Assembly: GCA_965649765.1 (NCBI GenBank) | Contig: OZ287758.1 | Coordinates: 16,616,001-16,680,000, forward strand | From: Bispira polyomma | Lineage: Eukaryota | Reading direction: 5' to 3' | DNA length: 64,000 bases | In this document: in pieces, positions 3,930-59,511 of the stretch | Layout of the letters: each line of letters opens with the position of its first letter | How positions within the stretch are numbered: position 1 is the first letter of the stretch | Notes under the pieces: model-generated | Database searches by the model: none | What the model was told of the DNA's origin: nothing | The model's input: the letters and a program-made list of their open reading frames with translations, nothing else | Position numbers and translations under genes: made by a program

Positions 3930-4800
3930 CTAAGAGGAAGAGGAATTAATGGAAGCAAGAGTGAGTGGTACTACATCAGCTTGTGAGGAAGAAGGTTGGA
4001 GGTAAGCCCAGACAGCTGAGCTGCGCCAGAGGCCATGGGACATTATATGCTGTAGTCTATGGTCCATACCTAAATGCTGTAACACAGTTTTCAGCGCAGA
4101 TGAGAGTAAATTACTGGCAGGTGGGGTGAAGAGAAAGCTACAAAATAATGGAACAGAAAGGGAAAGATCCCTAAATTGGAGGAGCTGAGTGAGAGCTAAG
4201 ACAGGGCAGAGTAGCTTATTTTTAAGGACAGGAAGTTGTAACACATGAGTGTCTGTTCTATTTTGCATTTTTAACCCACTTGAGAATGAGATGATCCTCG
4301 GGTGGGCCAAAAACTATGTCCCGTCATAGGACATGTCTGGTTGTATCAAATTTACTTCTTGAGTGTGGAGCAATGTTTGACATCATTAAGAAGCCAAAGA
4401 ATGCCACAAGGAATACAGCCCTATACAGAAGCGGGTCATCTAATATAGAACAAGTCCTTAATATGTTTCGAAGGAATTGAATGGCAAAAATCACCCTTTT
4501 CAGGAGTTTGAATTGAAAATAGAGTGCTAAGCTCCTGAGGAACATAGACACAGTGTGGTGAGTTAAGACCTAAGTATTTAAGTTGTATTTAGAAAACATA
4601 AACTTGAGAGCAGCCACTTAGATGTTAACCACTCTAGCATAAATACTGTTCTGGGCTAGGTATTCCAGAAAAGCAAGTATAGAATGTACTGAGACTAGCT
4701 GCAGGCCTGAATAGTGCAAGAAAGCTAAGTAAGTTTTAAATTGTGAGTTATAAGCACTGGTGGTGGACGGCCTCAGTGCAGCGTCCAATCACTGTACTGC
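3930..4800 (-). pseudogene. Tyrosine recombinase remnant of the retrotransposon
   Basis: ORFs 4324..4551 and 3930..4310; the catalytic R of FGFLRxS reads M, the HSxRxG box is deleted, and the G.W.S.A...Y box is retained. Confidence 0.85.
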
Positions 4801-10998: not shown

Positions 10999-11693
10999 GC
11001 CTTCGCTTCCTTTCAGCATGTTTTTCTCGGCCGACATCGGCCGATTTTATTAGTCATTATGCAAAACTACCAAGTGCTTTCTTTTAGCATATTTGCATGA
11101 GATCAGAACAGACGTCGGAGGACGTCAGTTGCCCCAACATATTTTATCAATCAGGGAGCGAAAAAAATCGGGAGGACTGTCCGATTTTGACACAAAAATG
11201 GCTACAAAAACACTGTCATAGGTATAGTTTTCATTCAATATATACTCAATATTCGTCGGATGTTGACTTTAAAAATGGCATAAAAAAGCTTATTTTATTG
11301 TGATTACTGTGCTTTTCCCTCAACAAAATCCGTTGAGAAACGGCTCAAATATTTAAGTTTATACACTTACCCCCTTTTAACTTCTATTGTGAATAATACA
11401 TCACTACAACGTCAACAAGACGTCAGTTTTGTAGCTACGTCACAGTTTAGACATAAGGAAGTAAAAATGGGCACCCTTATTTGATTGTTTATATCTGAGC
11501 TGTTTCCCAACGAATTTTGGCACAGTAATCACAAAGTAAGCTTCCTCATGCCAATTTTAAAGTCAACATCCGACGAAATTTGATTCTAACATGACACGGC
11601 AGTGTCGGCGATTTTGATTGGCCCACAGCCTCGGTAAAATTACCCGTATACCTATAAAAGGAAATAGACAAATGTGCTGAAAGAAAGCGTTGC
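10999..11693. mobile_element. MITE (PIF/Harbinger-like family) with an internal inverted repeat
   Basis: Ends GCCTTCGCTTCCTTTCAGCA ... TGCTGAAAGAAAGCGTTGC; internal IR TTCGTCGGATGTTGACTTTAAAAATGGCA (~11252) versus TGCCAATTTTAAAGTCAACATCCGACGAA (~11549); same ends as the element at 25364. Confidence 0.8.
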
Positions 11694-12307
11694 TGACTTA
11701 GGGTTTATTCTGATCCTTTATTCTGGTATCAAATATTCATCAATCCAGGTTAGTTGCTGTTTTGTGTAAAAAGCAGAAATCTAACTGGTTATAAAGACCC
11801 CACAATAAACAGGCTCCATGTTCTGTAACTGTTGTCCTTGTGTTAGCCATTCTAACAAGGTCTACTTCTTGTGTGTCAGTAAACTGTGTTTTAAAGCACT
11901 ATTTTGGCCGCTCTGCACTGCACAAGGGGCCTGTAACTGAAGGCCTGAGGGACCGGCCACTGCCCATTGAAGTGATGGTCCCAGCCCCCAGGCACTCCTT
12001 ATCTGCCTGTACCCCATTAAAGTGGTGATCTCAGCCACCAGCCACTCCGTATCTGCCTGTACCTCGGAGCCACAGGCTCGGATCGAAGCCAGGTCCTATA
12101 TCTTCTTAACCAGATGTGTTACCCACCAAGCCACAGTGACTGATGCAAAGTGTATCTGGAAAATGGATGTAGTTTATATCAGTTCTAAATTATGTTTGCT
12201 TGTGTATGGAAGCCTTGACAATAATTAGTAAATTTATCATCATTAACTCCTTCAAGACTATGTCGACACTAAAGTGTATTCACCAGTACCATGTCTGTCT
12301 ACTAATA

Positions 12308-14178
12308 GGAGCGATTTTACTATTTCCGGCTTCCTGGTTACAGAGTATTTAAGGTAGAAACGAAAATAATGGATAGGGTTGCAACTAAAATTTATAAAAG
12401 TAGAAAACATTTATAACTTTGGTGAATATTGACAGATATTAAAGGGGAATGACTACTTTACAATTTTAAATGCATTCCGAAAGCTAATTCACCAAGATAA
12501 ATCTTCAGAAGCTATTTGTTTAAGGACCTTTCTGAAATGTTCGGCCATCTTGGATTTAACAGGAAATCACCTAGTCCTATATTTTTCAAGATATCTCAAA
12601 AAATCAACAGTTCAGACCTGTTTTCATTTATACTGAAATGTCAGGCTAAGATTGATGTTTATTTTCATATATGATTTGTACGGCCAGCACTTTGCCGGAC
12701 TTAAGTATAGCCCAAAAGCTATAAGATAATGTATAGCAAAATTAATATTGGTCTCACGCCAATTTGTCTGCAAAGTTAAATAAGGTGGCAGGGTATATTT
12801 TCTCTCTTGTGAGACAATGCATTAAAAAATTCAAATGATTTTATGCTGTTTTATCACATTGTACTTTTGCAGTGGTGCAAGCTACATTTTAATCGTATAT
12901 TACGCTATTTACATTAATTTTAACAATTGTTAATGTAAAAAAATGGGGTTTGAATCCCTAGTCAGTGATGTAAAGTCGATTTAAAGAGTGTGTGAATAAA
13001 GTTTTGAGAAACAGCTTGTTTAAATCTGGTCTTGTTTGTCTTAAATTATATTACAGAAATATGAATATCATTCATAATCACCATTATTGTGTATCATATA
13101 TTTCCATATTTCACAGAATGTGTAAGAATCAGCTATAAGAACTGTTCCGATAATTAGCCGCAAAAGGTCAATTTAAACGATGTAGGGAGGCCTTCGGGTA
13201 TACACTCAAAAGTGCATTTGGAAGCAGTTTAGGTCACAGGGTACATTTTTTGAATTGATAAATTACCCCTAATTAATTTAAAAAGAGTCGATCATGCGCT
13301 TGTACATTAATTTTAACTTAATAAGAATAAAAAAGTAATATATTATTAGGAGAGTGCCTTATTTTAAGTGTACTGTAGAGTGCTGATTTACACAATGTTA
13401 CACGAGTAATAATACATAAAAATTAAGAATTATTGATAATAATGCAATAATTATGTGTTTATACAGCATGAGTATTAGTTTAAGGTCACCTTATCACGAT
13501 CTCAAGATATCAGAAGCAATGTAAGTAAGTGCCCAATGTGCCAGACTTGGGGTTTTTATTCGAATTATCTGTTCTTAAACTGTGTAGAGGAAGTCTACAG
13601 AATCTGGGATATCTTTGTCATTTGTGCCTGAAATTTCGTAATATTTGGGATATATGTATCTGAGACATTGTTATTTTGACCTATGGTGCACTCATATGTG
13701 AATTATAGTTTTGTGTGGACAATTTGGAGTGATTTTACTATTTCCGGCTTCCTGGTTACAGAGTATTTAAGGTAGAAACAAAATAATTGATAGGGTTGCA
13801 ACTAAAATTCATAAAAGTAGTAAACATTTTTAACTTTGGTGAATATTGACATATATTAAAGGGGAATGACTACTTAACAATTTTAAATGCATTTCAAAAG
13901 CTAATTCACCAAGATAAATCTTCAGAAGCTATTTGTTTAAGGACCTTTCTGAAATGTTCGGCCATCTTGGATTTAACAGGAAATCACCTAGTCCTATATT
14001 TTCCAAGATATCTCAAAAAATCAATAGTTCAGACCTGTTTTCATTTTTACTGAAATGTCAGGCTAAGATTGATGTTTATTTTCATATATGATTTGTAGGG
14101 CCAGCACTTCGCCGGACTTAAGTATAGCCCAAAAGGCTATAAGATAATGTATAGCAAAATTAATAGTGGTCTCACTGC
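12308..14178. mobile_element. Non-coding composite/LTR-like element: two 453-bp direct repeats (12308-12760, 13726-14178) around a 965-bp spacer, with an AATA target duplication
   Basis: Repeats are near-identical with few substitutions; AATA at 12304-12307 and 14179-14182; the element interrupts a 46-bp minisatellite. Confidence 0.85.
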
Positions 14179-14182
14179 AATA

Positions 14183-14485
14183 GTCAACACTAAAGTGTAT
14201 TTACCAGTATCATGTCTGTCTACTAACATTCACCACTGAAGTGTATTCACTAGAACTGTGTCTGTCTACTAACATTCAACACTGAAGTGTATTCACTAGT
14301 ACTGTGCCTGTCTACTAACATTCAACACTGAAGTGTATTCACTAGAACTGTGCCTGTCTACTAACATTCAACACTGAAGTATATTCACTAGTACTGTGCC
14401 TGTCTACTAATAATCGACACTAAAGTGTATTCACTAGTACTGTGTCTGTCTACTAACAATCGACACTAAAGTGTATTCACCAGTA
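14183..14485. repeat. 46-bp minisatellite, ~6.5 copies, plus one displaced copy at 12262-12307
   Basis: TTCAACACTGAAGTGTATTCACTAGTACTGTGCCTGTCTACTAACA with period 46 (14229, 14275 and onward). Confidence 0.95.
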
Positions 14486-14894
14486 TGTGTATCATATGTT
14501 GTAAGGCTACTTTCCTTCAGTACCCTGATTTACCTTCATTTAAATTTTCTTACAAGGTTTAAACTAGTGGTAAATTTTATCTCAGCCAAACCTCAAACTT
14601 ATTGGTTGGAAAAAATCAACTGTATTGTAATTTGTGTTTAAAGTAACCAGAACATGTAATAAATGTAGAAGTATCTTTGGTACCCTGTAATCAATGCCAA
14701 ACATAATACCTTTTCTAGCAACAATATCTACAGTGGTGCTTATTAATATCACAAAGAATCTTGACAAAAAAAAGTTGCTGCTTTTTTCCAGTAGTTTTAG
14801 TCACTGGTAATGCATAATTGAAAGTATAATCTCAAAAACTCATACTAACATGGCAATAAATAAGGGACTGTGTAAACTTTGTATAAAGAACTAG

Positions 14895-45900: not shown

Positions 45901-47184
45901 GGTGGTGGTCAAGTTTTTGGAAATGTCCAATTTGTAAATCCCTCTGCCACAGCAGCACAAATAGAGACTTTTTGGGTTTTTGGGTCTATTTAAACTTATA
46001 CTAAAGGTTGTGCAGGTGATTGTTTCGTAATAAGGCCTTCCACGATGTGGAGTAATCCTAATTATTAACATATGGTTATTATTTTACAGACATGCAGTCA
46101 AACTGAAACATCGCCTGGAGTGTATTCGAGAAAAACATGGAGTCTACCAGCTGATATTTATAAAAACTAACCGGACTGCATCAGGATCACTTGTGGATTT
46201 ACGGGTAAAAAATAAGCTCATGGCTGGTTTATTGTATTATAAAATCAGTTTTATGTGTTAATGCATATCTCTACATAACCATGGCCAGATAACTATAATG
46301 ACAAACTAATAGGAATAGCATTGTAAAAAGATCTATAAAAATTATTGTGTATTACTCATAAAGCACATATCTTTATTGCAATCTAACTCAGGCAAATTTG
46401 AAATTGTATAAATTATCAATTGAATTATAATAAAAATATATGCTTTATCATACAAGACATGGTGTGGTTTTTGCAGGAATCAGCTGAAGTTTGCAGTAGC
46501 AAAGTTATCGTTGCTGTACCCCCCAAGGCTCTAAAGCACATTGAGTGGAAACCATTCGATAGCCACTTTCATTTCAGAGAATCATTGAACTCTGTGGATG
46601 ATTACCCAGTCATGAAAGTTTTTTTCTTGTACACAAAGCTCTGGTTTAACTTTGAAGACATTCCGACGGAATTCCAGGATGTCTATACGGATATGCCAAT
46701 ACACCACTTTAAATATCTGGGCAAGTATACACATGTCGACAAGGTGTACCATGCCTTCCTTGTAGCTGAAGCTGAGGGGGATGATTTGAAATACCTCCAG
46801 GGACTTCTTGATCTGACACACTATGACTGTGAGCATATTTACAGGTGTCGTGATAGTACATACCTCATCAAAGACATCACAACACAGATTGTTACCCTGT
46901 TCAAGAACAGATATCAGATCTCAGAGGAAAATATGCCAGATCCCGAACAAGTCATTATTAATGACTGGACGAAAAGTAGTGGGACAGGAAGTTGGTATAA
47001 CTGGAAAAAGGGGGTGTTTTGGGGCAATGTGGAGAGGAATATGACAAAGCCAGAGTATAGAGAAGATGTGTACTTTGTGGGGAATGGGTTCTGTGGGGGG
47101 CAGTGTCAGCACCAGGTGGACGGATCAATTCAAATTGTTGACCATGTGATAGACAATTATTTTAATACTTCAGTACCTGAATGA
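36964..47184 (+). CDS. Type II membrane-anchored L-amino-acid oxidase / flavin amine oxidase-like protein (aplysianin/achacin-like), 595 aa, 9 coding exons: 36964-37177, 41786-41830, 43283-43473, 43985-44178, 44576-44674, 45267-45349, 45624-45762, 46090-46204, 46477-47184
   Basis: All introns GT-AG with matching phases (1,1,0,2,2,1,2,0); total 1788 nt open; FAD motif DVAIIGSGISGAYTAWRL...VYE; LAAO-like VPYEL..EQGKSP, GGMQTLP, KVIVAVPPKAL, MKVFFLY..LW, YTDMP, GSWYNWKKG, VYFVG; N-terminal hydrophobic IVTVIMVLGMIFCVVMIVIV; in-frame TAA upstream of the ATG. Confidence 0.9.
38395..38600 (+). mobile_element. tRNA-derived SINE in intron 1 of the LAAO-like gene
   Basis: A-box-like GTGGTCTAGTGG, B-box-like GGGTTTGAGCC; homologous to 29270-29420. 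Confidence 0.7.
41285..41520 (+). mobile_element. Full-length tRNA-derived SINE with an 8-bp TSD
   Basis: B box GGTTCAAATCCC; central GTGAGAAAATTGGCAGTTACTTGCTGATGGTCG; (AAATC)n tail; TSD GCACTTAA at 41277-41284 and 41521-41528. Confidence 0.85.
42005..43290. repeat. 57-60 bp minisatellite (~20 copies, homogeneous core 42380-42700) filling the 3' part of LAAO-like intron 2
   Basis: Unit GGTAAACATGACATATCATGTCTGTAAGTGTGGTATATGGGTAGTACAGTCATT-like; explains ORFs 42262..42681 and 42396..42722. Confidence 0.95.
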
Positions 47185-52056: not shown

Positions 52057-53226
52057 AGCGTGGGTGCTTACTACCTGGGGTGCTCGGTCTTTCTGGTGTA
52101 TATAAATATGCATCGGTTCTCCAATGCGCAAGGTCTAGTTAATATATGCCATATCATATCTACCATTATTCAGCCACTGTACAAAGCTGACAGAGATTTA
52201 AAGGTTCTCGCAAGCCATGCTATTCTGTCAGTCAATAGTCAGTGTTTAGTTCATCACCGTGGGCAGTGTTTTTAGTTGTGTATTTAATCAGTGCAGTAGC
52301 GAGCTCTTCAGTGCTCTTATACACAACTGAGGGAGTGTGTAATTTATCTGGAATCTATCTCAAGGGCCCCTATCACCTTTATTAATCAAACACAAACATT
52401 ATGGTAATTGGGCAGTGTGTGTGTCTGTGTGGGTCTACCTTCTGCCTTACGTCCCTACTTGCTACTTTATTGAATAAGAATTGATTATTAAACAATGTTC
52501 TTGTGTGTTTACGTAACACGAGAAAGCCATTGAGTTGCCATCATAGATATCATATCAAAACGGGTAGCAGATTTCAATTAAAGGTGGAGACATGATTAAA
52601 TATATTTATGCTAAATCAGGACCCTTTAGCAGTGACTATCAAAGCTGGGTGTGTGTACATAGCATAAATTGTTCATTCAGAGCAGAGCTTGACTTTTAGT
52701 TCCCTGATATCTTATGATAGCACAGGCTTGTCAAAGACCATTTGTTGAGGCGTTGTAAAAACCATTTCACCAGCCACACTTAATACTTGTTTGGATAATG
52801 AACTGGTATGAATTGAACATCAATAAAAAATATATAAAAGCCATAGTGTTTGAAGGGGAACTTAATAAATACATAGTAAGATTGATAAGAGTATATCAAG
52901 AAGCCAAGTGAGTAATTAGGCTTGTGTTTTTGTATTGAATAATTTTGTATTTGCTATCTTTCTTTCTCAAACAGTGAGGATTAATTATCAGTAAACTTTA
53001 ATTTACTATCCTACATGGAGTTTACTTTAGTTTGGCTTTAAAGGCGGTGTCAATAGTTTTTATTTGTCATATTAAGAAAGGCAGTTCACCGCTGGAAAAA
53101 TTCCAAACAGATCAGTTGGTTTGGGTTTTTGCTCTGCAAATCGCTGATATTCAGCAAGTCCACTGCCAATTTTATTGACCATGGAGTAACCAAAATATGT
53201 CATATGTGTACTTCAGATAAGATGAA

Positions 53227-54849
53227 ATGAGCACAGTTCAGATGAGTCGTGACCTGAACACTCAGGCGGCAGCCTTTCTACATGACCACTTCCAAGACAG
53301 TATAAATGAGGATGGCCTCAAAGTGGTCACAGACTGGATCTCCACCAAACTGGAGGAAGAGCGACAAGGCTGGAGAAAGAAAGTGCAGATGTCCTTCAAA
53401 GAGGTAGAAAAGGAACGGAAATTGGGACTTTCTACCCAGGCGGCTGTCCAGAGAATCGTCAAGCTGTTTGATCCGTATCTGGAGCCACTGTATCTGTACC
53501 GGGAACCAAGCCAGTATCACAGTGCAGAGTCAGACAGTCGGGTGGAAAATGTGGAACAGCTAGAGAAGAACATCCAGGCCATACTCAGACTCTTAGACCA
53601 ATACCAAGAGGAGAGGATAGAGTGTCTACAATACCTCAACATTGCCGAGCAGGAAGTCAACCTGGCAGAAGTTTTCAGGAAGAGAACGACCAGACTGGAA
53701 CAGCAATTGGACAGAACGGAGACAGAATGGAAGGAAACTGAGCATAGACTACTGCAGGAAATACAGACTACTAACGAAGCCCTGGATATGCAGACCAAAC
53801 TGGCGAATGACCAGAAGGAGAAAAATGGTAAAGAAATAGCAGAAACCAGGAGACTATTAGGAGAACTCAAGGTCAAGGTAAAAAGTATGCCTGTCCCAGG
53901 GCTTAAACTGGTGAACAGAGGAGTGCAAGTGAACATAGTGAGGAAGAAAGCCACTCGCGAATGTTGTATACAAGTCAGTCTGGATTTGACTGGTGATAAT
54001 GGCTTGGCAAAGAACAAGAACATTTTGAGAGGGACAGATGATCAAACAGAAGGAAAACAAATAGATATCATGGATCTGCAGCCACCTTCAGAATCAGGTT
54101 CAACCCATCCGGGAATATCATCTATAACTATTGTCAAACAAAGAGGAAACAAAGGCAATCACCAGAAAAATCAATTGAAGAAGCAAGGTTTGGAGAAAGG
54201 TTTAGCTCCTGTAATGCACACGAGAGGGGAAGCCCTTATGGCGTCATCAAGCCAGACTTCTAGTTTCAGTGACTTTGGCAATGATCTGTATAAGAAGTCT
54301 GAGCAATATGCAGAAACTGACTCCCAACATCAAACTATAGCCTTTTTGAGAAATCAAGTGGTTGACTTTGCCAACAAGCTGGGTAAAGCCAAACATGAGG
54401 TGGAAAAATATCATGAACATGTGGCCTTCAAAAAAAGTAAGATAAATGGATACTCCCAAAGTAATCAACCAGATACAGACAGATCAAGCTACACCTCGAG
54501 GTCTATCTATGACTTTAGACACGATGAACTCAGAGGTTTTCTTTCCGGTGTAAAAGTCAAAGACGGTGGTACACAGTCGGCACGTAATCACCAGCAGCCA
54601 ATGAAAAGTGACAGTCAAAAGCCAATCAAAGCCATGCTTTCATACAGTGGGACAGGCAAGTGTCTGAGGTGTAACAAACTCTACAAAGTCAAGGAGAACA
54701 CAAACACCTGCTGTAAGTTTCACACTAAGAACAAAAAAAACTTTGAAAAGTATGACTCCAATGGAAAACTTCAGAAAGTGATACAACTCTGGGAATGTTG
54801 TATGCACGGCTCTGATTATGAGGGCTGTCAGTTAGGACAACATATATGA
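53227..54849 (+). CDS. Uncharacterized 540-aa coiled-coil protein with a C-terminal Cys/His zinc-binding module
   Basis: Uninterrupted 1623-nt ORF with higher GC than its flanks; E/K/Q/L heptad-rich region at about aa 100-220; CLRC...CCKFH...WECC...GC...H C-terminus; upstream acceptor TTCAG at 53216 and in-frame TAA at 53218. Confidence 0.88.
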   Translation: MSTVQMSRDLNTQAAAFLHDHFQDSINEDGLKVVTDWISTKLEEERQGWRKKVQMSFKEVEKERKLGLSTQAAVQRIVKLFDPYLEPLYLYREPSQYHSAESDSRVENVEQLEKNIQAILRLLDQYQEERIECLQYLNIAEQEVNLAEVFRKRTTRLEQQLDRTETEWKETEHRLLQEIQTTNEALDMQTKLANDQKEKNGKEIAETRRLLGELKVKVKSMPVPGLKLVNRGVQVNIVRKKATRECCIQVSLDLTGDNGLAKNKNILRGTDDQTEGKQIDIMDLQPPSESGSTHPGISSITIVKQRGNKGNHQKNQLKKQGLEKGLAPVMHTRGEALMASSSQTSSFSDFGNDLYKKSEQYAETDSQHQTIAFLRNQVVDFANKLGKAKHEVEKYHEHVAFKKSKINGYSQSNQPDTDRSSYTSRSIYDFRHDELRGFLSGVKVKDGGTQSARNHQQPMKSDSQKPIKAMLSYSGTGKCLRCNKLYKVKENTNTCCKFHTKNKKNFEKYDSNGKLQKVIQLWECCMHGSDYEGCQLGQHI

Positions 54850-57420: not shown

Positions 57421-57783
57421 ATACATAGGTTTTAATTTTATCTGAGAGAGTATCATTTCAGAGTTGAAATGAATCATAGAAAGTATTGGACAAAAGAACC
57501 TATAATGAGAGAGGGAGAGTAATATCATTTGATAGGTCTGACACTGAGGTATAGTAAACTCTTCAACTTATTATCAAAGGAATCACCCAGATCAATAAAC
57601 CAACAATGAAGACAGAATGGAGCAGGCATTGTTCCTATCATCACATGTTTATTCTTATTTCAATGCTGAAACTGTGTATAATATAGTTGATGCATCTGGT
57701 GTTATATGGAAAGAATATTAAGAATAAAGTTATACTACATGGCTAAAAGCTAAGCTGTGCAACTCGGGAAATCAAATAACATT

Positions 57784-59511
57784 ATGACTAGCAAAGCCAA
57801 AAGAATGTCATTCCGGAAAACAATCAACCAGTTCTTAATATTTGCTTTGGCCTCTGTTTTTGTGACTGTGCTATTGTTTCATATATACATAAGCACAGTG
57901 TTAGATAAAAAAGAGAAATCTGGGGAGGCCCACAGTCAGTTTACTTGGAATGAAGCCAGTTTTCTTGGAATAAAGAACAATAGTGGAAACTTCTCAAATT
58001 TAGCACACAATATCTCCAAACTACAACATACTCCTGCTGCAGTACTTGGGGAAGGAGGACATATTGAGGGACACCTGGAACAGAGAGATGTACCAATAGA
58101 AAGCTTTAAAATACAAAACACAACAACTATAGAAGTGGTACTCATGAAAAATGTTAAAAACGAAGTACTGACAGATAACAGTCAGATTGTGACGCCATTG
58201 ATTAGGAATAAAAACAGTTCAAATTCTGGACTGCAGGTTAATAAAGGTATAAACATTACTAAGGACATCAACCATGCATTCAGGATGAAATTAGATCCAG
58301 ACATCTACCAAGATGACATGTTGGCTAAAAAGAAGAAGTTTTTCAAAGTGATTGAATTGTTTGACAGTAGTCAGGATACAGAGAATGAGTTGTATTGTGG
58401 TGGACGCATAGAGATATATAACAGAGTCATGGTAGTGTTTAACCAGGTTTACCTTGATCCTACCCACACTACTATTATAATGAAAGAAGGTAATTCAAGC
58501 ATGGTACACAAGGAATATCTTTTCCATAAGGGTTTATTCACCTTAAAAAGGCCATGCGATGTATCAAATATGGAAGGAATTCTTCAAACTCATGTAGCCA
58601 ACAGGTCTGCGTATGTGAGTCAGTTTGTAGATGCTACAGAACTCAGAGAAGATAGAACAGCTAAGTATAAGTCGGCTCATCCAAACTTTACCATCATCTT
58701 TGCCAGGTACGACTATGCCAATGTATACTGGACTATAGTAGAACTGTATGACCTCTTCCTTATGACCAGGTATCTGAAACAGGACCCAAAGATGACCACT
58801 ATAGTTTTCGCTGACCTTTGGCCTACCAGTCATCTGGATAAGATCTGGGACTGTTTCAGAGAGGTGAAGAGTCTGCGGGAGTATCGTAATCCTCTTATAT
58901 TATCTAAACTTGCCTGGAAGTATTCGCGGAAGTACAGCCCGGCTCTTCAGATGTTAGTTATGGACATCCCACTACTTCTAGAGTTCAAACAGTTCATCCT
59001 CTCTGGGCATGGGATATCTGCAAAACCTACACGATCTTGCTCTGAGAAACGTCTAAACGTTTTGTTTGTCTGGCGCAGAAACTACTTGGCACATCTTGCC
59101 AATCCAGAGGGTCTCATATCCAGAAAGATCAAGAATGAAGAAGAGATACTGCAAGCTGCTGTGAAGACATTCCCAAGTTTTAATATAACCGGTCAGCAGT
59201 TAGATCTCTACAGTATCAGCCTACAGTTGAAGTTTATTTCTCAAGCAGACATTCTGATAGGCATGCACGGTGCAGCTATGGCATTCTCACCTTTCTTACA
59301 AGAGAGGGGTGTGGTAATTGAGATGTTTCCCTCTTCCTACCATGGGATGAACTGGCACATGCAGAAACTGGCTCAGTGGAGTGGTCATACCCACCTGTAC
59401 TGGAAAAACAGTAATTCGACACTAGAAGATACAGCATTGCAGTACACCACTATACCACCATCTCAAGTGATACATCTCCTCACTGAGGCACATAAGATCA
59501 TATGTAAGTAG
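57784..59511 (+). CDS. GT61-family glycosyltransferase, beta-1,2-xylosyltransferase (XYLT)-like, type II membrane, 575 aa, single coding exon
   Basis: First ATG at 57784; short basic tail, TM segment FLIFALASVFVTVLLFHIYI and an N-glycosylated stem; FVWRRNYLAH...SRKIKNEEEI and QADILIGMHGAAM..SPFL...VIEMFP motifs of GT61/XYLT. Confidence 0.92.
   Translation: MTSKAKRMSFRKTINQFLIFALASVFVTVLLFHIYISTVLDKKEKSGEAHSQFTWNEASFLGIKNNSGNFSNLAHNISKLQHTPAAVLGEGGHIEGHLEQRDVPIESFKIQNTTTIEVVLMKNVKNEVLTDNSQIVTPLIRNKNSSNSGLQVNKGINITKDINHAFRMKLDPDIYQDDMLAKKKKFFKVIELFDSSQDTENELYCGGRIEIYNRVMVVFNQVYLDPTHTTIIMKEGNSSMVHKEYLFHKGLFTLKRPCDVSNMEGILQTHVANRSAYVSQFVDATELREDRTAKYKSAHPNFTIIFARYDYANVYWTIVELYDLFLMTRYLKQDPKMTTIVFADLWPTSHLDKIWDCFREVKSLREYRNPLILSKLAWKYSRKYSPALQMLVMDIPLLLEFKQFILSGHGISAKPTRSCSEKRLNVLFVWRRNYLAHLANPEGLISRKIKNEEEILQAAVKTFPSFNITGQQLDLYSISLQLKFISQADILIGMHGAAMAFSPFLQERGVVIEMFPSSYHGMNWHMQKLAQWSGHTHLYWKNSNSTLEDTALQYTTIPPSQVIHLLTEAHKIICK

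What the first reader, a model, noticed from the sequence alone, without database searches (positions are those of the whole stretch)
12304..14182. Non-coding composite transposon: two TIR-bearing 453-bp modules in direct orientation around a spacer with its own duplicated junctions
Seen directly: two near-identical 453-bp modules flank a 965-bp ORF-less spacer. Each module has short imperfect inverted ends (GGAG[C/T]GA..ACTATT / AATA.TGGTCTCAC[GCC/TGC]) rather than the TG...CA ends of an LTR. The whole unit is flanked by AATA and splits a 46-bp minisatellite cleanly, so it appears to have arrived as one piece. The spacer also begins and ends with AATTT (12761-65, 13721-25). Inference: this is what you would expect if a MITE inserted into a circular or tandem DNA and the module-cargo-module unit then moved. 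That resembles a bacterial composite transposon or an IS26 translocatable unit, and would be unusual in an animal genome. The alternative is a TRIM or atypical LTR element.
Basis: partly seen in the sequence, partly recalled or inferred. Interest (0 to 1): 0.7.

Follow-up and report, generated by a model that had tools for sequence, protein, structure and literature searches.

The report
Gene-less KolobokP transposon with circle footprints
This is one of dozens of gene-less copies of KolobokP, an already described animal jumping DNA with paired end repeats; in its sister copies the two end repeats share the same mutations and some insertions carry a few stray bases of the element's interior, which likely means the element moves through a DNA circle holding only one repeat.

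Summary
The structure is real: a 453-bp module, a 965-bp ORF-less spacer and a second module, flanked by an AATA duplication inside a 46-bp minisatellite. It is a non-autonomous KolobokP element (Kojima & Bao 2022). Dozens of dispersed copies share the spacer, solo modules number in the hundreds, and 3.8-4.8-kb partners with the same module (85-88%) encode a Kolobok-type DDE transposase, with no RT and no His-Me nuclease detected. It is not a TRIM, and the AATTT 'junction duplication' is not a target duplication. Two tests bear on the open mechanism. The two repeats of one element share derived mutations about six times more than repeats of different elements, while resting copies diverge independently. 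And 8 of 105 insertions carry 3-5 interior-terminal bases between repeat and target duplication (null 0.003 per pair). The donor is therefore likely a one-repeat circle or its multimer; IS26-like copy-in cointegration is the boldest reading. This scan has filed KolobokP before in other genomes, and two earlier notes saw one of these two signals each.

The parts
12262..12307 (+). left unit of the 46-bp minisatellite that was split by the insertion
   Evidence: (D3)
12304..12307 (.). 4-bp target-site duplication AATA, left copy
12308..12760 (-). long terminal direct repeat (LTDR), 453 bp, with own short inverted ends; strand given relative to the partner's transposase
12761..13725 (-). non-coding internal region (INT), 965 bp, subfamily N1; unrelated to the autonomous INT except at its tips
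12761..12768 (.). INT tip (AATTTGTC; AAGTTGT[C/G] in older and autonomous copies), inverted partner of the other tip
13715..13725 (.). INT tip GTGGACAATTT, shared with the autonomous partners
13726..14178 (-). second LTDR, 453 bp, 96% identical to the first; the pair shares 5 derived non-CpG substitutions
14179..14182 (.). 4-bp target-site duplication AATA, right copy
14183..14489 (+). rest of the 46-bp minisatellite (6.7 copies)

Best explanation
This is a gene-less (non-autonomous) KolobokP DNA transposon that was likely moved in trans by the Kolobok transposase of a partner family in the same genome, and whose donor form was likely a circle (or a multimer of it) holding one end repeat with the internal region on both sides, so that one repeat would be copied to both ends at each round. 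Shown: architecture, 4-bp duplications, solo repeats, the partner and its transposase, shared mutations in repeat pairs, interior bases at some insertion ends. Inferred steps: (1) recombination or the transposase releases an LTDR+INT circle and leaves a solo LTDR; (2) the transposase binds the two inverted ends of the single LTDR, flanked by the conserved INT tips, and joins them to a 4-bp staggered A..T target; (3) copying through the LTDR (cointegrate route), or cutting a unit out of a concatemer, gives LTDR-INT-LTDR with identical repeats, whereas nicking the flanks or later recombination gives a solo; (4) a nick displaced by 3-5 bases leaves INT-tip bases at one end. Odds: about 0.95 for the class and about 0.6 for the one-LTDR donor.
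For: Class: 27 of 30 spacer loci fetched have module sequence on both sides, 3 on one side, 0 on neither. 524 exact matches to the module's first 20 bp genome-wide. 7 elements of form LTDR-(3.8-4.8 kb)-LTDR with the same module at 85-88%; their ORF hits PF20700 at E 6e-61 and shows, by eye, the motifs of published KolobokP transposases (PNVGLQVGL as in KolobokP-1_ParEch, CCHC finger after the first D, TTDGD, DTTH). The module's reverse strand matches the start of the KolobokP-1_MaMa LTDR at 24 of the first 30 bases, by eye. Reset of repeat pairs: shared derived non-CpG changes between the two LTDRs of one element are 5.5 (N1, n=8) and 4.9 (N2, n=12), against 0.80 and 0.84 between elements, permutation p 0.0001 each; left-left, right-right and left-right sharing are equal; 13 lineage markers are on both sides in every carrier; LTDR lineages follow spacer lineages (Mantel r 0.52 and 0.76). 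Left and right are sisters in 16 of 26 elements. Not conversion at rest: in 19 elements private changes are 164 one-sided against 38 two-sided, and 70 against 3 in the 9 elements I picked as having a close sampled relative; LTDR private rate 1.39% against spacer 1.54%. Footprints: 8 of 105 insertions have 3-5 bases identical to the INT tip between the LTDR and the second target copy (5 left, 3 right; right ones subfamily-matched, AATTT in N1 twice and AAGTT in N2 once); null 0.0032 per random pair; offsets with other bases 2, against about 2.6 by chance; one case is the outer end of a full element (L032), and 6 of the 7 ends without a duplication are INT-like on one side. The non-autonomous spacer keeps only the 8-11-bp INT tips of the partner.
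Against: No circle was observed; contigs cannot show one. 7 of the 8 footprints are on solos, which could also come from a single LTDR cut out of an ordinary two-LTDR copy with an imprecise inner cut; only L032 (clear) and L137 (probable, one mismatch) need a circle or multimer donor. 12 side-specific markers exist (5 left-only, 7 right-only, each in two elements; by my reading of the spacer tree only 1 pair lies in one clade) and 23 markers are mixed. L048 carries three lineage markers on its right repeat only, and L055's repeats lack most markers of its spacer clade. In the autonomous subfamilies the test is not significant (n=3 each, p 0.18 and 0.34). Full elements were taken from top search hits, not at random. 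The partner's LTDRs form clades separate from the non-autonomous ones (about 10% apart), so the exact mobilising copy was not found, and every partner copy whose frames I listed has a broken transposase frame. The partner lacks a detectable His-Me nuclease, which most KolobokP families have.
Confidence: 0.6

Rival explanations
1. Same class (non-autonomous KolobokP), but it moves by ordinary cut-and-paste of the two-LTDR unit; repeat pairs are made alike by unequal crossover into chromosomal multimers or by break-induced conversion at donor sites, and solos are cut out singly with imprecise inner ends (close to the model in PMC9587614).
For: One three-unit array exists (L073/L074). Asymmetric L048 and mixed markers. 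Most footprints are on solos. The paper reports LTDR excision with 1-5 flanking bases lost on one side.
Against: Multimers are rare here (1 array among the spacer loci), yet nearly every lineage is reset. No His-Me nuclease was found in the partner to induce crossover. Resting copies show little conversion. Left-left and right-right sharing do not exceed left-right sharing.
Confidence: 0.32
2. A TRIM or other non-autonomous LTR retrotransposon: reverse transcription would make both repeats identical at each insertion, and solos would come from recombination.
For: Repeat pairs are reset and solos far outnumber full copies, as in LTR elements; the 4-bp duplication fits too.
Against: Ends are GG..CC, not TG..CA. 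Neither orientation has TGG behind the first repeat, and the longest purine run in the last 40 bases is 3. The long partners with the same repeats encode only a PF20700 transposase among the ORFs scanned.
Confidence: 0.03
3. A one-off or local composite: two independent MITE insertions, or a MITE that entered a circle of host DNA here and duplicated AATTT, or a 1418-bp satellite.
For: AATTT at both spacer ends in this copy.
Against: The same spacer sits between two modules at dozens of loci with different outer duplications. The tips are inherited and shared with the autonomous partner, and read AAGTT/AATTT in older copies. No 1418-bp head-to-tail array was found among the loci examined.
Confidence: 0.02

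Closest known systems
Non-autonomous KolobokP families (Kojima & Bao 2022, Mob DNA 13:24, PMC9587614), e.g. KolobokP-N5_CGi (1738 bp, LTDR 445, TSD 4) and KolobokP-N1_ParEch (1820 bp, LTDR 455, TSD 4) in Table S1
   Same: LTDR-INT-LTDR of about 1.8 kb, LTDR about 450 bp with RR..YY inverted ends, unspecific 4-bp duplication, many solo LTDRs, occasional multimer. The LTDR start resembles KolobokP-1_MaMa and -1_SiCo. Inverted INT tips are also visible in the paper's Fig. S2/S3 rows, e.g. KolobokP-5_MyCo.
   Different: None of six 11-12-bp end or junction words was found in the paper's four supplements, so this family seems unlisted there. Its partner has no detectable His-Me nuclease. In the parts I read, the paper tests neither LTDR-pair reset nor interior bases at recipient sites, and says a circular intermediate remains to be determined.
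IS26/IS6-family pseudo-compound transposons and translocatable units (PMC6952201, passages)
   Same: Directly oriented end modules around cargo. In the copy-in route one IS plus a target gives a cointegrate with the IS duplicated and a new target duplication, and solo copies arise by recombination.
   Different: IS26 encodes its own transposase inside the module and makes 8-bp duplications. Here the module is non-coding, the enzyme is Kolobok/Mutator-like and supplied in trans, and no cointegrate has been shown.
TRIM (terminal-repeat retrotransposons in miniature; features recalled, and discussed in PMC9587614)
   Same: Non-coding, direct terminal repeats, solo repeats, repeat pairs alike.
   Different: No TG..CA, primer-binding site or polypurine tract; the partner is a DDE transposase element.

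Membership tests
KolobokP | LTDR-INT-LTDR architecture moving as one unit | tested here: met
   18 of 23 full elements with exact outer 4-bp duplication
KolobokP | LTDR length near 450 or 660 bp | tested here: met
   453 bp here, 454 in most intact copies
KolobokP | LTDR with own short TIRs, 5'-RR..YY-3' | tested here: met
   GGAGTGA..TCACTCC; 13 of 17 terminal positions complementary
KolobokP | 3-5-bp target duplication without strong specificity | tested here: met
   76 of 105 exact 4-bp; A at position 1 in 35 of 38 and T at position 4 in 26 of 38 (one duplicate flank included), so a clear A..T bias
KolobokP | solo LTDRs and (LTDR-INT)n multimers | tested here: met
   solos; one three-unit array whose far end is deleted, so its duplication cannot be read
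KolobokP | Kolobok DDD/E transposase with CCHC finger after the first D and DxxH, in the autonomous member | tested here: met
   absent from the window element (non-autonomous); present in partners with the same LTDR: PF20700 E 6e-61; motifs compared by eye with the paper's alignment rows
KolobokP | His-Me finger nuclease on the opposite strand (paper: most families; not KolobokP-1_LG or -1_SaGl) | tested here: not met
   no hit in 7 partner INTs by tblastn or phmmer; the PF05551 genome search gave 1 hit over cut-off of 4 candidates, outside these elements. The paper itself lists exceptions, so the feature is not universal in the lineage
KolobokP | placement inside the KolobokP clade on a transposase tree | not tested
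   no tree with the published transposases was built
TRIM / LTR retrotransposon | TG..CA repeat ends | tested here: not met
   GG..CC
TRIM / LTR retrotransposon | primer-binding site and polypurine tract | tested here: not met
   no TGG start in either orientation, longest purine run 3 in the last 40 bases; no tRNA set was searched
TRIM / LTR retrotransposon | autonomous partner with reverse transcriptase | tested here: not met
   12 partner ORFs scanned gave PF20700 (6) or nothing (6)
IS26-type pseudo-compound transposon | end module encodes its own IS6-family transposase | tested here: not met
   longest stop-free frame 67 codons
IS26-type pseudo-compound transposon | copy-in cointegrate formation from a one-module donor | not testable with these tools
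   only indirect sequence footprints
Sola | Sola-type transposase in the partner | tested here: not met
   partner hits PF20700 and carries Kolobok motifs

The most novel reading that the evidence does not exclude
KolobokP is a eukaryotic copy-in (replicative, cointegrate-forming) DDE transposon: its true mobile unit is the single non-coding LTDR sitting in an LTDR+INT circle, and each insertion duplicates the LTDR, as IS26 or Mu do in bacteria. This would explain LTR-like reset of repeat pairs without reverse transcription, the conserved inverted INT tips, the excess of solos and the stray interior bases, and it would work without the His-Me nuclease.
Probability: 0.3. Interest if true: 0.75.

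Novelty: new member of a known kind. Interest (0 to 1): 0.42.

Why it matters
As an object it is ordinary: one more gene-less KolobokP family. Its value is that it speaks to the question that the describing paper left open, namely how a DNA transposon keeps two long direct repeats alike and whether a circle is involved. Two cheap sequence tests (repeat-pair markers, interior bases at insertion ends) point to a one-repeat donor, in a family whose partner seems to lack the nuclease proposed to maintain the structure. If the cointegrate route holds, animals have a bacterial-style replicative transposon, which would also be expected to cause adjacent deletions and inversions, and LTR-style dating by repeat divergence would be valid for these DNA elements.

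Tried and rejected
TRIM and Sola were rejected. The spacer as an internal-deletion derivative of the partner was rejected: word-size-7 blastn and tblastx against 3 and 1 partner INTs gave only chance hits besides the 11-bp tip; the origin of the spacer's interior is unexplained. Search for abutted LTDR-LTDR junctions (0-8 bp apart), expected from two-LTDR or solo circles: 1 hit, and there only 11 bases of a second start follow; no support. The three-unit array as proof of reset was rejected as indecisive: all four repeats carry the same insert, but the far end is deleted, and unequal crossover plus deletion explains it too. The one-sided element L041/L098 as a clean excision footprint was inconclusive. 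Three other PF20700 loci (L186-L188) have no module-type LTDR. Public contigs (4 runs, at most 3 samples, possibly the assembly's own source) bridge the right junction in 3 runs but cannot show circles, empty sites or copy number. 23 of the 80 unselected module starts had no recognisable 3' end within 560 bp and were dropped, as was 1 duplicated flank, before the count of 56. Three of the 26 elements (L034, L053, L133) were left out of the 23 because their outer boundaries are unclear or compound. No large protein-database search, fold or complex job was run.

Full report
Observation. The window holds, between two AATA copies, a 453-bp module (12308-12760), a 965-bp spacer and a second module (13726-14178), 96% identical to the first. 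Taking out the element and one AATA restores the 46-bp spacing of the minisatellite that it split. No frame in the element is open for more than 67 codons.

Family in the own genome. The module search found 2183 first-look candidates, of which 40 were scored. Its first 20 bases occur exactly 524 times, with control 0. The spacer search found 110 candidates, 40 scored. Of the 30 spacer loci fetched (the window's copy and three units of one array included), 27 have module sequence on both sides, 3 on one side and none on neither. Intact ends read GGAGTGA...TCACTCC. There are two non-autonomous subfamilies, N1 (the window's) and N2, with LTDRs about 6% apart and copies 2-3% from their majority state. 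In an unselected set of 80 module starts from two contigs (known composite positions skipped), 57 had both ends and none of these had a composite junction; after dropping one duplicated flank, 21 were N1 and 35 N2.

Autonomous partner. The junction pattern spacer-end/module-start had 44 hits. Of the 20 loci fetched from it and nearby, several carried long interiors. Seven elements have two module-type LTDRs (85-88% to the window's) around 3.8-4.8 kb, and five of these have an exact 4-bp duplication. Their ORF, on the strand opposite to the window's orientation, hits PF20700 at E 6e-61. A protein search gave 35 matches in the genome. By eye it shows the motifs in the KolobokP alignment of PMC9587614: PNVGLQVGL as in the row KolobokP-1_ParEch_1p, the first D followed by a CCHC finger, TTDGD, DTTH and the catalytic E region. 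The module's reverse strand matches the start of the KolobokP-1_MaMa LTDR at 24 of 30 bases. Every partner copy whose frames I listed is broken. No His-Me nuclease was found in seven partner interiors, and the one PF05551 hit over cut-off lies elsewhere. The spacer shares only its 8-11-bp tips with the partner's interior. These tips are inverted repeats of each other, and start AAGTT in N2 and the partners but AATTT in N1.

Comparison with what is known. Kojima and Bao describe KolobokP as LTDR-INT-LTDR with 450- or 660-bp LTDRs, RR..YY ends, short unspecific duplications, solos, multimers and non-autonomous families down to about 1.5 kb. Most families encode a His-Me nuclease and some do not. 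The element fits, and TRIM features are absent. The paper says the pathway is unknown and that a circular intermediate remains to be determined; it proposes circles re-entering existing LTDRs, or nuclease-induced unequal crossover. A 2026 review passage says the model awaits confirmation.

Test 1: are repeat pairs reset? In whole-unit cut-and-paste, mutations in a donor would be passed on as left-only or right-only markers. Instead the two LTDRs of one element share 5.5 (N1, 8 elements) and 4.9 (N2, 12 elements) derived non-CpG changes, against 0.80 and 0.84 between elements (p 0.0001 each). Left-left, right-right and left-right sharing are equal. Thirteen markers are on both sides in every carrier, 12 are side-specific (each in only two elements) and 23 are mixed. 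LTDR lineages follow spacer lineages (Mantel r 0.52, p 0.016; r 0.76, p 0.0002), which argues against circles recombining into random solos as the main route. Left and right are sisters in 16 of 26 elements. Resting copies are not being homogenised: private changes are 164 one-sided against 38 two-sided in 19 elements, and the LTDR private rate (1.39%) is close to the spacer's (1.54%). Exceptions: L048 has three lineage markers on the right only, and L055's repeats do not match its spacer clade. The autonomous subfamilies are too few to test (n=3 each, not significant).

Test 2: what flanked the donor? Of 105 insertions (56 unselected solos, 26 top-hit solos, 23 full elements), 76 have an exact 4-bp duplication, 12 one mismatch, 8 an exact duplication displaced by 3-5 bases identical to the INT tip, 2 another offset (about 2.6 expected by chance among the 29 non-exact) and 7 none. 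The null for an INT-matched offset is 0.0032 per random pair. Five extras are on the left (INT end) and three on the right (INT start), and the right ones match the subfamily. There is no excess of random donor-flank bases, which solo-to-solo movement would give. One case, L032, is the outer end of a full element, and L137 is a probable second. An outer end can abut INT only in a one-LTDR circle or a multimer. Solos alone could also come from single-LTDR excision with an imprecise inner cut, which is the main rival.

Mechanism. One model covers both tests, the conserved tips and the solo excess: an LTDR+INT circle is the donor, and its one LTDR is joined to a 4-bp staggered target and copied. 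This is the copy-in route described for IS26-family elements, where the IS is duplicated and solos arise by recombination (PMC6952201 passages). Cutting units out of a concatemer of that circle would leave the same traces and cannot be told apart here. The circle, the enzyme's action and the copying step are inferred; none was observed.

Novelty and sources. The element is a new member of a known kind. Four paper searches found only the 2022 paper and one review on KolobokP, and one search listed no paper holding Kolobok with cointegrate or replicative transposition among its 15 shown of 141. Most subscription papers and Repbase Reports are not searchable. I read parts 1-5 of 6 of PMC9587614's main text, Table S1 part 1 of 2, Additional file 2 part 1 of 7, and part 91 of 106 plus search passages of Additional file 3; the unread figures S3-S5 may already show displaced duplications. 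Of PMC13565253 I saw one passage, and of PMC6952201 twelve passages. TRIM and Mu features are recalled. This scan's own notes list at least 8 KolobokP findings in other genomes: one mentions repeats made alike again and one mentions four interior-like bases at one end. The second prompted the systematic count. They are unchecked notes and are not counted as evidence.

Verdict. The structure is real and the class is known; the sister copies give a useful mechanistic lead. Interest 0.42.

Noticed in passing
window 11241-11588: 348-bp MITE-like element with 56-bp arms, 84% complementary, and an inner 15-bp perfect inverted pair.
   Followed up: no
L147 5904-6494 (G000:C2:97624101): 196-codon frame with a His-Me finger nuclease hit (PF05551, 43.9 bits), with no long direct repeat pair and no transposase-sized ORF in the 10 kb examined; the only such hit over cut-off in the genome.
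   Followed up: partly
L073/L074 (G000:C1:47.664-47.678 Mb): Three-unit LTDR-INT array in which all four LTDRs are interrupted at position 141 by the same 1.7-2.6-kb insert made of about 143-bp tandem units.
   Followed up: partly
L067 570-1672: Mini element: two full LTDRs around only 200 bp of spacer, with an exact 4-bp duplication.
   Followed up: partly
L086, L087, L088 (G000:C5:38.24-38.71 Mb): Three 99% identical segments holding one LTDR preceded by only the last 15 or so bases of the spacer and then unrelated DNA; a third interior type or a deletion.
   Followed up: no
L040, L047, L091-L093: Several full-spacer copies whose left LTDR is cut short (first 31, 73 or 199 bases kept) shortly before the spacer start.
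   Followed up: no
L186, L187, L188: Other PF20700 transposase loci without this LTDR and without a tblastn match to the partner transposase: further Kolobok or Mutator-like families.
   Followed up: partly
window 3930-4313 (-): 127-codon frame that looks, from memory, like a decayed tyrosine-recombinase fragment; not tested.
   Followed up: no
window 46402-47184, 53221-54849, 57754-59511 (+): Long open frames (260, 542, 585 codons) that look like host exons; no frame of 120 codons or more lies within 6 kb of the element.
   Followed up: no
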